From assembly GCF_009914755.1 (NCBI RefSeq), contig NC_060934.1: 64,000 bases of DNA. One strand, given 5' to 3'. The notes beneath the pieces are model-generated. The model did no database searches and was not told the DNA's origin. It saw only the letters and a list, made by a program, of their open reading frames with translations. Source of the stretch: the human T2T-CHM13v2.0 reference genome, Homo sapiens. Below, piece by piece: positions 36,135 to 37,616 of this stretch; within the stretch, counting starts at the first letter, position 1; every line of letters begins with the position of its first letter. A program made the position numbers and the translations under genes.

Positions 36135-37616
36135 CTAATGATGTGCTGCTTCCAGTTCAATATTCAGCTGTGCATTTTTTCTTATTTCATCAAATGAATA
36201 GCTTTTTGTCACCTTGCCATTCTTGAAGACAGTATGGAGAAGATCCTGACCATATTCCTCAAGGTCTCCTTTTCCTTCTTCCAGTGTAACAAAATTCCCT
36301 GCTGGCGTCCTATGTAAAGATAATCGGCCCTTTTTGGACCTTTTGTTGGGATCAGCAACCGGGTCCTTGAAGACGTTAATCCCAAGGCCATTAGTTACAA
36401 CATAGCTACACTTGAAGGAACAATTCAAGAGATCTCTTGTTAACTTCTGTAGCAAACCTCCACCAGAACCGAAGGCAATATTTTCAATACTCCACATTTT
36501 TTGTTTCATGCCTTCTACAATCTCTTGTAAGGTATTAATATCTACTCCATCCCCTTGAATAACTCTAAGATAAGGTGGCAGCAACTTGTAACCCTTTGAG
36601 TTCTCAGTAACAGGAAACTTCTTACCTAAAATCTCCAAAACCTTTAACACAGTGTCAAGAGGGTTTCCAGAATCAGGTCTGATTATTAGTGGTGCCTGTG
36701 TACTTCTCGATACTATTAAATGTCTTAGATCTTCACCCCATATTTTCTCACACGCATTATAAATGTCATAGCTATTGCTGACCACAGATACAGGCACTGA
36801 TGAAAACTGTGTTACAATATGTTCAAAAGCATCTTTTTCATGGTCTTTCCCCCAAGCTGTTATGGTACTGTGTTCTGCTGCTGGAACAGAATAGCCTGGA
36901 ACAGGATCTTTCGTTCCATAATATTTTTTATTTAGAGCAAGTCCTGCTACTGTATCTGTTCCTTTGAAGTTAACCAAATGAGCAGATGCTCCTATGCCAG
37001 CAGTCTCTTGGGAAGAGACTCCTCTGTAGCCAAAATCATGTAACTTGTATTCCAGACCATCTAAGTTACCAGAAGTTTCTAACAAATATTTGGCCAATAT
37101 TTTCTTCTGCTCTCTAGAATTTGTGGCCACTGTGATTGGATACCAGGACTGAACAAGAATAGTCTCAATCCAATTTGTAAGCCAGTAACACTCTGGATCT
37201 GTGTTTTCCACCGTGAAGAGAACATTTCCTCTGGGAATGACAAAGCCTTCAGGAACAGCTTTTATTTCTATTGGAAGATGCCCATCATATTTCTCAAGAA
37301 TGTAGTTCCATCCTTTTTCATTAACGACATCATCTTGGAAATGTTCTTTGTAGACATCTTTGGCTTCCTGGATTTTCTCTTTGGTTACTACTTTACCTTT
37401 TAAGTACTTATTAAGAATGTACTGCAACCCATAAAATACTGTTTCCTCATATTTCACCTTCCTTAATTTGGAGTTTTCTGTCTTCTTTTCACGGCATTCA
37501 AAGTAGGAATAAACTTTGCTTGTGTTGGGTGGATATTGTTTATAGTGAGTAACCTGCCCAGCCAGGGGCGTGCGCGCCGGGCTGGCCCGGCAGGGAAAGC
37601 CCCGCTCACTCTCCAC
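36135..37616 (-). CDS. Open 493-codon frame: 21 novel residues from a GTG start, then NAMPT residues 20-491; translation unproven
   Basis: Translation matches human NAMPT from [10 protein letters not shown] to LEAAHH* with no stop or frameshift. Apparent changes versus the recalled parent are F96V, I227N and D279N. The first codon is GTG, and the first in-frame ATG inside this ORF is Met368. Confidence 0.4.

What the first reader, a model, noticed from the sequence alone, without database searches (positions are those of the whole stretch)
36135..37616. NAMPT 'pseudogene' has a fully open frame with a strong-context GTG start: possible non-AUG, catalytically dead NAMPT paralog
Seen: no stop or frameshift over 472 NAMPT codons. 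The frame extends 5' into the GC leader to cccGcaGTGG (37616), with G at -3 and G at +4, and is closed by an in-frame TAA at 37635-37637. A GTG-initiated product would be 493 aa, nearly the size of NAMPT (491 aa). Known: Tyr18 and Asp16 of one subunit complete the nicotinamide site of the NAMPT dimer, both are absent here, and some cytokine activities of extracellular NAMPT are reported to be enzyme-independent. Inference: if translated, the product would co-migrate with NAMPT and might poison heterodimers or act as a non-enzymatic 'visfatin'. The intact frame could equally reflect recent insertion alone.
Basis: partly seen in the sequence, partly recalled or inferred. Interest (0 to 1): 0.8.

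Follow-up and report, generated by a model that had tools for sequence, protein, structure and literature searches.

The report
Young NAMPT retrocopy, open by youth
This is a recently inserted, intron-less copy of the NAMPT gene made from an alternative transcript that lacks the normal start codon, and its unbroken reading frame is what its young age alone would give, so it is most likely an ordinary pseudogene.

Summary
The sequence facts are right. There is a 499-codon stop-to-stop frame with 472 intact NAMPT codons. A GTG lies at 37616 with G at -3 and +4, and an in-frame TAA lies at 37637-37635.

The locus is a classic L1-type retrocopy spanning 37756-35040. It has a 14-nt target-site duplication, a poly(A) tail and 10 of 10 precise exon joins. 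Its GC-rich leader is not random DNA. It copies a segment inside NAMPT intron 1 that ends in the parent at a consensus donor CAG|GTAAGT. The source mRNA therefore used an alternative first exon that skips the canonical ATG. The TAA, the GTG and an in-frame 17-codon AUG uORF are all inherited from the parent.

Nothing exceeds chance:
- P(intact frame | neutral) is about 0.26-0.33.
- 37% of shuffled leaders give an equally good in-frame CTG or GTG.
- The lineage-specific 3 non-synonymous : 6 synonymous split (p about 0.02-0.035) is an excess of synonymous changes, not a deficit of non-synonymous ones (p = 0.38 against the 3'UTR yardstick).

Any product would be enzymatically dead. I found no promoter-like sequence and no published evidence of translation.

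Verdict: known pseudogene NAMPTP1, most likely neutral. Low interest.

The parts
37758..37771 (-). 5' copy of the target-site duplication AAAAGTTCCATTCC. The flank reads TTTTAAAA, which fits the L1 endonuclease site. One extra T at 37757 separates it from the insert.
   Evidence: read directly from the sequence
37554..37756 (-). Leader of the retrocopy (203 nt, 76% GC, 21 CpG). It copies C7:107599980-107599771, a segment inside NAMPT intron 1 that starts 272 nt downstream of the canonical exon-1 donor. In the parent it ends at CAG|GTAAGT. RefSeq's pseudogene span (35055..37555) does not include it.
   Evidence: (94.3% over 212 columns)
37635..37688 (-). uORF of 17 codons in the NAMPT frame. 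The AUG at 37688 has a weak context (C at -3, C at +4). The uORF ends at TAA 37637-37635. It is identical in the parent's leader.
   Evidence: parent leader
37614..37616 (-). The GTG proposed as a non-AUG start (G at -3, G at +4). It lies 18 nt after the uORF stop and is identical in the parent. The other in-frame near-cognate codons are ACG 37571 and CTG 37565.
36138..37553 (-). 472 codons equal to NAMPT exons 2-11 (residues 20-491), with no introns. There are 11 substitutions and 0 indels against the parent.
37323..37325 (-). Codon 96, Phe to Val (T to G at 37325). Derived on the retrocopy lineage.
36930..36932 (-). Codon 227, Ile to Asn (T to A at 36931). Derived on the retrocopy lineage.
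36774..36776 (-). Codon 279, Asp to Asn (G to A at a CpG, 36776). This hits an active-site aspartate and is derived on the retrocopy lineage.
   Evidence: residue role from passages
36135..36137 (-). TAG stop, at the same position as the NAMPT stop.
35055..36134 (-). 3'UTR, equal to the first ~1040 nt of the NAMPT 3'UTR (C7 down to 107565457). It has 7 substitutions and 4 indel events against the parent. It includes a (TG)n(CA)n tract at 36111-36074 that is 38 nt longer than in the parent.
35040..35054 (-). Untemplated A-run (poly(A) tail). Its last 4 A may belong to the target-site duplication.
35030..35043 (-). 3' copy of the target-site duplication AAAAGTTCCATTCC.

Best explanation
NAMPTP1 is a young, L1-mediated processed pseudogene of NAMPT. 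An mRNA of the chromosome-7 gene was reverse-transcribed and inserted at a TTTT/AAAA site on chromosome 10. That mRNA began in, or was 5'-truncated within, an alternative first exon lying in NAMPT intron 1, and it was spliced from the donor CAG|GTAAGT to exon 2. It therefore never carried the canonical ATG or codons 1-19.

Since insertion the copy has drifted neutrally. It has about 0.57% lineage-specific substitutions. With recalled rates of 0.5-1 x 10^-9 per site per year, that is roughly 6-11 million years. The 472-codon frame is intact simply because too few mutations have occurred to break it.

The open leader frame, the in-frame TAA, the GTG and the uORF are passive inheritances from the parental exon. 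Any RNA signal attributed to the locus is most likely partly or wholly parent-derived.

Shown: anatomy, origin of the leader, mutation counts and their polarity, and the chance expectations. Inferred: neutrality, the age, and the lack of translation.
For: Retrocopy anatomy:
- 14-nt target-site duplication and a 15-16 nt A-run.
- 10 of 10 exon-exon joins coincide with GT/AG introns of the C7 gene.

Leader:
- It matches C7:107599980-107599771 at 94.3%.
- In the parent it is followed by GTAAGT.
- The only ATG + 17 codons + AAG|GT candidate upstream of exon 2 lies 272 nt upstream of it.

Divergence from the parent:
- Leader: 5 substitutions and one 7-nt indel in 210 nt.
- CDS: 11 substitutions and 0 indels in 1419 nt.
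- 3'UTR: 7 substitutions and 4 indels in 1040 nt.

Polarity, using the older C5 and C16 copies:
- 9 of 11 CDS changes and 5 of 7 UTR changes are on the NAMPTP1 lineage.
- 2 CDS changes (both synonymous) and 2 UTR changes are on the parent lineage.

Chance expectations:
- P(no stop) is 0.60-0.74 and P(no frameshift) is 0.44, so the product is 0.26-0.33.
- Against the 3'UTR yardstick, the expected split of 14 changes is N 5.5-5.7, S 2.0-2.5, stop 0.3-0.4, UTR 5.7-5.9. Observed was 3, 6, 0, 5. P(N<=3 | N+U=8) is 0.38.

Other points:
- The leader diverges 4-fold faster (5 of 203) than the rest, and 2 of the 5 changes are CpG transitions. CpG count is 21 against the parent's 25. This is as expected if the leader is not kept as an unmethylated promoter.
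- Active-site lesions are the loss of Asp16 and Tyr18 plus D279N.
- The 1 kb upstream is 38% GC with CpG o/e 0.17, and the 944 bp searched is single-copy.
- The locus is catalogued as a known pseudogene, retro_hsap_79 (supplement of PMC7290577).
Against: - On the NAMPTP1 lineage the coding changes split 3 non-synonymous: 6 synonymous. Under neutral mutation models P(N<=3 of 9) is 0.006-0.035, or 0.021-0.035 with kappa 4-8. Conditioned on 7 transitions and 2 transversions it is 0.028.
- All 3 polarised small indels of this lineage fall in the 1040-nt 3'UTR and none in the 1419-nt CDS. (1040/2459)^3 = 0.076, my arithmetic.
- These two hints point the same way. They rest on 9 and 3 events, and the polarity rests on an outgroup that is 22-24% diverged.
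- One developmental RNA-seq study that kept only uniquely mapped reads lists NAMPTP1 as co-expressed with NAMPT at R = 0.935 (supplement of PMC9641868). Some locus-assigned RNA signal therefore exists.
- Neither translation nor transcription could be tested here.
Confidence: 0.8

Rival explanations
1. Translated retrogene. NAMPTP1 RNA is translated from the GTG at 37616 by leaky scanning past the weak uORF AUG. The product is a 493-aa NAMPT-like protein without enzyme activity that is kept by selection, for example as a heterodimer partner of NAMPT or a non-enzymatic extracellular form.
For: - The frame is intact and the GTG has G at -3 and +4.
- The uORF AUG has a weak context, so some scanning ribosomes could pass it.
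- Lineage-specific N:S is 3:6, p = 0.02-0.035.
- There are 0 indels in the CDS against 3 lineage-specific ones in the 3'UTR.
- 12 of 15 named active-site residues and the whole NAPRTase domain are kept.
Against: - The low N:S is an excess of synonymous changes (6 observed against 2.0-2.5 expected; P = 0.035-0.084). It is not a deficit of non-synonymous ones (3 against 5.5-5.7; P = 0.38). Selection cannot raise S.
- Adding the 2 changes inside the putative extension, both amino-acid-changing but unpolarised, gives 5:6 with P = 0.06-0.08.
- The GTG, the TAA and the open leader are inherited from the parent and are within chance.
- The GTG lies 18 nt after a uORF stop, which by recalled general knowledge is too close for efficient re-initiation.
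- The RNA fold after the GTG is not unusual (z = -1.03; 28 of 200 shuffles fold at least as well).
- No promoter-like sequence lies upstream.
- The Pfam NAMPT_N match lacks profile positions 1-9.
- The three peptides gave 0 hits in full-text search.
Confidence: 0.06
2. Functional non-coding RNA. The locus is transcribed and its RNA regulates NAMPT. It would do so as a decoy for microRNAs or RNA-binding proteins that target the shared 3'UTR, which is over 99% identical apart from indels.
For: - The 3'UTR has 7 substitutions in 1040 nt against the parent.
- An in-silico study proposes a NAMPTP1/miR-26b-5p axis (passages of PMC7732303).
- NAMPTP1 and NAMPT signals correlate at R = 0.935 with uniquely mapped reads.
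- Several expression studies list NAMPTP1 or NAMPTL.
Against: - The ceRNA paper is purely computational and says that no mechanistic study exists.
- The expression hits track neutrophil abundance, where NAMPT itself is high. A tight correlation with the parent is also what a small constant mis-assignment of parent reads would give at this identity.
- The 3'UTR carries 3 lineage-specific indels and 5 substitutions, the same rate as the rest.
- No promoter-like sequence was seen.
Confidence: 0.1
3. The missing ATG region is a later deletion. The copy was made from the canonical NAMPT mRNA and lost the 5' coding end afterwards, so the leader is not a fossil of an alternative exon.
For: None found. 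I considered it only because RefSeq starts the pseudogene at the exon-2 homology (hub annotation).
Against: - The leader is not canonical exon-1 sequence. It lies 272 nt downstream of the canonical donor, inside intron 1.
- It joins exon 2 exactly where the parent has CAG|GTAAGT and the exon-2 acceptor AG. A deletion would not recreate a splice junction.
Confidence: 0.01

Closest known systems
L1-mediated processed pseudogenes (retrocopies); this locus is the annotated NAMPTP1, formerly NAMPTL, RetrogeneDB retro_hsap_79
   Same: It is intron-less, has a poly(A) tail and a 14-nt target-site duplication at a TTTT/AAAA site, and has an intron-containing parent on another chromosome. It is listed as KNOWN_PSEUDOGENE in the supplement of PMC7290577.
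   Different: The annotated span (35055..37555) omits the 203-nt leader. That leader comes from an intron-1 exon of the parent rather than from canonical exon 1.
NAMPT (nicotinamide phosphoribosyltransferase, type II phosphoribosyltransferase; Pfam NAMPT_N + NAPRTase)
   Same: 469 of 472 aligned residues are identical to solved human NAMPT. Both Pfam domains are found. Phe193, Arg196, Asp219, His247, Arg311, Asp313, Gly353, Asp354, Gly383, Gly384, Lys415 and Lys423 are kept.
   Different: There is no AUG for the frame. Residues 1-19, including Asp16 and Tyr18, are replaced by 21 unrelated codons. It also carries D279N, F96V and I227N.
Processed pseudogenes as fossils of past or alternative transcripts (concept recalled from Shemesh et al. 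2006, not read here; the idea is echoed in the Background passage of PMC9641868)
   Same: The copy preserves an exon-1b to exon-2 splice junction of the parent that skips the start codon.
   Different: I could not check whether that parental exon is already annotated or expressed today. The literature search for it was uninformative (0 of 12 listed papers mention NAMPT).
Non-AUG-initiated proteoforms (for example CUG or GUG starts in FGF2, MYC, EIF4G2; recalled, not checked here)
   Same: A near-cognate codon in a strong Kozak context lies in a GC-rich leader, upstream of and in frame with a long ORF.
   Different: In those cases initiation was shown experimentally and the extension is conserved. 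Here the context is within chance, both changes in the extension alter the amino acid, and a uORF ends 18 nt upstream.

Membership tests
L1-mediated processed pseudogene | Exons joined exactly at the parent's splice sites, with no introns | tested here: met
   10 of 10 junctions coincide with GT...AG introns in the C7 gene. Flanking 50-mers match at 48-50 of 50.
L1-mediated processed pseudogene | Untemplated poly(A) tail at the 3' end | tested here: met
   The A-run at 35054-35040 is absent from the parent at that point.
L1-mediated processed pseudogene | Target-site duplication flanking the insert, at an A/T-rich endonuclease site | tested here: met
   AAAAGTTCCATTCC lies at 37771-37758 and at 35043-35030. 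The upstream flank reads TTTTAAAA.
L1-mediated processed pseudogene | Disabled or non-functional (no expression or no selection) | tested here: inconclusive
   The canonical start codon is missing and 3 active-site residues are lost. Non-synonymous changes are not depleted against the UTR (P = 0.38), but N:S is 3:6 (p = 0.02-0.035). Expression is not testable here.
NAMPT enzyme family | NAMPT_N and NAPRTase domains | tested here: met
   PF04095 E = 2.2e-66, profile positions 1-238 of 239. PF18127 E = 2.6e-37, but only profile positions 10-98 of 98.
NAMPT enzyme family | Complete set of catalytic and substrate-binding residues (Asp16, Tyr18, Phe193, Asp219, His247, Asp279, Arg311, Asp313 and others, as listed in PMC3665594 section 7 and the PMC4158320 Fig. 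4 legend) | tested here: not met
   12 of 15 are kept. Asp16 and Tyr18 are absent and Asp279 is Asn.
Functional protein-coding retrogene | A usable start codon for the conserved frame | tested here: not met
   There is no in-frame AUG before Met368. One in-frame uORF AUG is closed by the TAA, and 20 out-of-frame AUGs lie between. Only near-cognate GTG, ACG and CTG codons are available.
Functional protein-coding retrogene | Purifying selection on the copy's own lineage | tested here: inconclusive
   The 3N:6S split is nominally low. It is driven by a synonymous excess, and N against UTR is not low. The test rests on only 9 events and on outgroups that are old paralogous copies.
Functional protein-coding retrogene | Own promoter and locus-specific transcripts | not testable with these tools
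   Only composition could be examined. The 1 kb upstream is 38% GC with CpG o/e 0.17, and the leader has CpG o/e 0.71 over 203 nt. No CAGE or RNA data were available.
Non-AUG-initiated proteoform | Experimentally mapped initiation at the near-cognate codon | not testable with these tools
   No Ribo-seq data were available. The codon context alone is matched by 37% of shuffled leaders.

The most novel reading that the evidence does not exclude
NAMPT has an alternative first exon inside intron 1 whose mRNA lacks the canonical AUG, and NAMPTP1 is its fossil. Both that parental mRNA and the retrocopy would be translated from the shared GUG into roughly 493-aa NAMPT proteoforms without Asp16 and Tyr18. 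The retrocopy's form would also carry D279N. These forms would pair with normal NAMPT subunits and lower NAD salvage, or act as a non-enzymatic extracellular NAMPT. The weak lineage-specific N:S signal would then be the trace of selection on the retrocopy.
Probability: 0.05. Interest if true: 0.6.

Novelty: already known. Interest (0 to 1): 0.2.

Why it matters
As it stands, this matters mainly for practice.

- The locus is over 99% identical to NAMPT across the coding region and 3'UTR. NAMPTP1/NAMPTL 'biomarker' and ceRNA reports therefore need locus-specific evidence. The diagnostic sites listed here can supply it: 11 coding sites, 5 leader sites, 7 3'UTR sites and 5 indels.
- The annotated span should be extended by about 200 nt at the 5' end.
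- The copy documents that an NAMPT transcript starting in intron 1 and skipping the start codon existed in the germline some millions of years ago.

If the copy were translated, it would be a natural dominant-negative or non-enzymatic NAMPT. That would bear on the debated enzyme-independent roles of extracellular NAMPT. The evidence here does not favour this.

Tried and rejected
- The paper PMC12467057 matched 'NAMPTP1' only through the allele name NAMPT^P158A and is irrelevant.
- The full-text search for the three diagnostic peptides, PBEF2 and 'NAMPT pseudogene' returned 3 papers, all on PBEF2 as a mouse or other name. There were 0 peptide hits.
- The search for an NAMPT alternative first exon or promoter returned 153 papers. 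12 were listed and 0 of them contain NAMPT, so it says nothing either way.
- Supplements of PMC9641868: the gene names gave 0 hits in the 12 of 15 files searched. The Ensembl id gave one row, the co-expression pair. One further file was too large to read and two were cut when stored.
- The supplement of PMC7290577 was cut at about 4 million characters and holds only the catalogue row. Later tables, for example on peptide evidence, may exist unseen.
- An APOBEC-like signature was considered. 5 of 9 coding changes are G to A, and 3 of those 5 are in GG context. It is not significant (P = 0.079 for context, 0.185 for strand asymmetry).
- RNA structure after the GTG is not different from shuffles.
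- I did not run structure prediction, complex prediction or the large protein searches. The product is 99.4% identical to solved NAMPT, so they could not separate the hypotheses.
- A segmental-duplication origin is rejected by the absence of introns and by the poly(A) tail and target-site duplication.
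Full report
**1. Observation**

The minus strand between 37634 and 36135 is one stop-to-stop frame of 499 codons.
- It is closed upstream by TAA at 37637-37635.
- It holds a GTG at 37616-37614 in the context cccGcaGTGg.
- It gives 493 residues from that GTG.
- From 37553 to 36138 it aligns without gaps to solved human NAMPT residues 20-491. 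The only differences are V for F, N for I and N for D. By native numbering these are F96V, I227N and D279N.

**2. What the locus is**

The insert runs from 37756 to 35040.
- It is flanked by AAAAGTTCCATTCC at 37771-37758 and at 35043-35030.
- It ends in an untemplated A-run and sits at a TTTTAAAA site.
- A search of the window's own genome found the parent exon by exon on C7:107565457-107599980. It also found two older partial copies, on C5 and C16.
- After fetching the parent, all 10 exon-exon joins in the copy coincide with GT...AG introns.

This is a textbook L1-mediated retrocopy. It is the annotated NAMPTP1, listed as retro_hsap_79, 'KNOWN_PSEUDOGENE', in the supplement of PMC7290577.

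**3. The leader is parental, and explains the missing ATG**

- The 203-nt GC-rich leader (37756-37554) matches C7:107599980-107599771 at 94.3%.
- The only ATG + 17 codons + AAG|GT candidate upstream of exon 2 in the parent starts at C7:107600309. Its donor lies 272 nt upstream of the leader segment. The leader segment therefore lies inside NAMPT intron 1.
- In the parent that segment is followed immediately by GTAAGT, giving the donor CAG|GTAAGT. The copy joins it precisely to exon 2.

The source RNA therefore used an alternative first exon. The alternative is an extended exon 1 with a downstream donor, followed by 5' truncation on insertion; these cannot be told apart here. Either way the RNA never contained the canonical start or codons 1-19. 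A later deletion is excluded.

The in-frame TAA, the GTG and an upstream AUG are identical in the parent's segment. They are inherited, not acquired. RefSeq's span (35055..37555, hub annotation) omits this leader.

**4. Is the intact frame more than chance?**

Differences from the spliced parent:

| Compartment | Length | Substitutions | Indels |
|---|---|---|---|
| Leader | 210 nt | 5 | one 7-nt indel |
| CDS | 1419 nt | 11 | 0 |
| 3'UTR | 1040 nt | 7 | 4 (38, 2, 5 and 1 nt) |

I used the older C5 and C16 copies as outgroups.
- 9 of 11 coding changes are on the NAMPTP1 lineage: 3 non-synonymous and 6 synonymous.
- 2 coding changes, both synonymous, are on the parent lineage.
- 5 of 7 UTR changes are on the NAMPTP1 lineage.
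- The 5 leader changes have no outgroup.

Chance expectations:
- Enumerating all single-base changes of the parental CDS, 3.3-5.4% create stops. P(no stop in 9) is therefore 0.60-0.74.
- The C5 copy is the same sequence decaying neutrally. It shows 187 substitutions, 20 indels (17 frameshifting) and 5 stops in 1123 aligned nt.
- That ratio predicts 0.82 frameshifting indels for 9 substitutions, so P(0) = 0.44.
- The chance of an intact frame under pure neutrality is therefore about 0.26-0.33.

**5. Is there selection?**

The 3:6 split is nominally low.
- P(N<=3 of 9) is 0.006-0.035 across models.
- It is 0.021-0.035 with kappa 4-8.
- It is 0.028 when conditioned on the observed 7 transitions and 2 transversions.

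I then used the lineage-specific 3'UTR changes as a neutral yardstick. The expected split of the 14 polarised changes is N 5.5-5.7, S 2.0-2.5, stop 0.3-0.4 and UTR 5.7-5.9. The observed split is 3, 6, 0 and 5.
- Non-synonymous changes are not depleted (P = 0.38).
- The oddity is a mild surplus of synonymous changes (P = 0.035-0.084), which purifying selection cannot produce.
- The two changes inside the putative 21-codon extension both alter the residue (R to C and S to T). Counting them gives 5:6, P = 0.06-0.08.

Indels:
- The 38-nt TG/CA difference is a loss in the parent, because the C16 copy has the long form.
- The 2-, 5- and 1-nt events are on the NAMPTP1 lineage.
- That makes 3 events in the UTR and 0 in the CDS. 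(1040/2459)^3 = 0.076, my arithmetic.

These hints are recorded as evidence against neutrality. They rest on very few events and on diverged paralogous outgroups.

**6. Could it be translated?**

- On an RNA starting at the insert's 5' end, the first AUG is at 37688. It has a weak context and opens a 17-codon uORF in the NAMPT frame that ends at the TAA.
- The GTG lies 18 nt further on.
- 20 out-of-frame AUGs follow before the first in-frame AUG at 36509, which corresponds to Met368 and would give 124 aa.
- A NAMPT-sized product therefore needs leaky scanning plus near-cognate initiation.
- In 5000 dinucleotide-preserving shuffles of the leader, 37% have an in-frame CTG or GTG with a purine at -3 and G at +4, and 85% have some near-cognate codon.
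- The RNA fold downstream of the GTG is stable but ordinary for this composition (z = -1.03; 28 of 200 shuffles fold at least as well).
- The 1 kb upstream of the insert is 38% GC with CpG o/e 0.17. The 944 bp of it searched is single-copy. No promoter-like sequence is visible.
- The leader has lost 4 of the parent's 25 CpGs and diverges about 4-fold faster than the rest. This is as expected for methylated DNA rather than a maintained CpG-island promoter.

**7. What a product would be**

- Pfam finds NAPRTase complete. NAMPT_N is found only from profile position 10.
- Of 15 residues named as catalytic or substrate-binding, 12 are kept. Asp16 and Tyr18 are gone and Asp279 is Asn.
- The residue lists come from passages of PMC3665594 section 7 and the Fig. 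4 legend of PMC4158320.
- PMC6642140 models Asp279 together with Asp313 and phospho-His247 at the magnesium/pyrophosphate site (passages).
- An enzyme role is therefore lost three times over.

**8. Literature**

- Full-text searches for NAMPTP1/NAMPTL found 45 papers. 30 were listed, and 19 of the 20 dated up to 2022 were listed. Not all 45 were seen.
- Several 'NAMPTL' hits appear, from their titles only, to be about mouse Nampt knockouts rather than this locus.
- From titles and abstract starts, and from passages of three papers, they are expression or biomarker lists and in-silico ceRNA networks.
- One paper notes a correlation of 0.85 with neutrophil fraction. Another states that no mechanistic study of NAMPTP1 exists.
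- A developmental atlas that kept only uniquely mapped reads lists NAMPTP1 and NAMPT as co-expressed at R = 0.935. This fits either co-regulation or residual mis-assignment at this identity.
- No paper held any of the three diagnostic peptides.
- I cannot say whether the parental intron-1 exon is annotated (one search was uninformative).

**9. Age**

- 14 polarised lineage-specific substitutions in 2459 nt is 0.57% (95% CI 0.31-0.96%).
- With recalled rates of 1.0 or 0.5 x 10^-9 per site per year, that is about 5.7 or 11.4 million years.
- The parent lineage changed at 0.16%, as expected for a constrained gene.

**10. Verdict**

NAMPTP1 is a known, young processed pseudogene. Its open frame, open leader and GTG are all within neutral expectation.

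The useful additions are:
- the true 5' boundary;
- the origin of the leader from an alternative, ATG-less NAMPT transcript;
- the uORF;
- D279N;
- a list of diagnostic sites for locus-specific assays.

Translation is not excluded, but nothing here favours it.

Noticed in passing
window 36074-36111 (minus strand, 3'UTR): The (TG)n(CA)n tract just after the stop codon is 38 nt longer in NAMPTP1 than in the parent gene. The older C16 copy also has the long form, so the parent NAMPT 3'UTR appears to have lost these repeats after the copy was made.
   Followed up: partly
window 37688-37635 (minus strand): The leader's only AUG is in the NAMPT frame. A single TAA separates it from the 499-codon open frame. 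The same arrangement exists in the parent's intron-1 exon.
   Followed up: partly
window ~37726 (minus strand); parent C7 near 107599950: The heptamer GCTCGGG is present three times in tandem in the parent's leader and twice in the retrocopy. This is the only indel in the leader, and its polarity is unknown.
   Followed up: no
window 37314, 37290, 37248, 36776, 36279: 5 of the 9 lineage-specific coding changes are G to A on the sense strand, and 3 of those 5 are in GG context. This resembles cytidine-deaminase editing of the cDNA, but it is not significant (P = 0.079 for context, P = 0.185 for G>A against C>T).
   Followed up: yes
L002 and L006 (G000:C5:145.535-145.542 Mb) and L005 (G000:C16:39.041-39.045 Mb): There are two older, 5'-truncated NAMPT retrocopies. 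The C5 copy is 76-78% identical, with 5 stops and 17 frameshifting indels in its CDS-derived part. The C16 copy is 87.5% identical over 1370 columns and continues past NAMPTP1's poly(A) site, so it came from an mRNA with a longer 3'UTR.
   Followed up: partly
window 35055-37555 (RefSeq span) against 35040-37756: The curated pseudogene span starts at the exon-2 homology. It leaves out the 203-nt leader derived from NAMPT intron 1, and also the poly(A) tail (hub annotation).
   Followed up: yes
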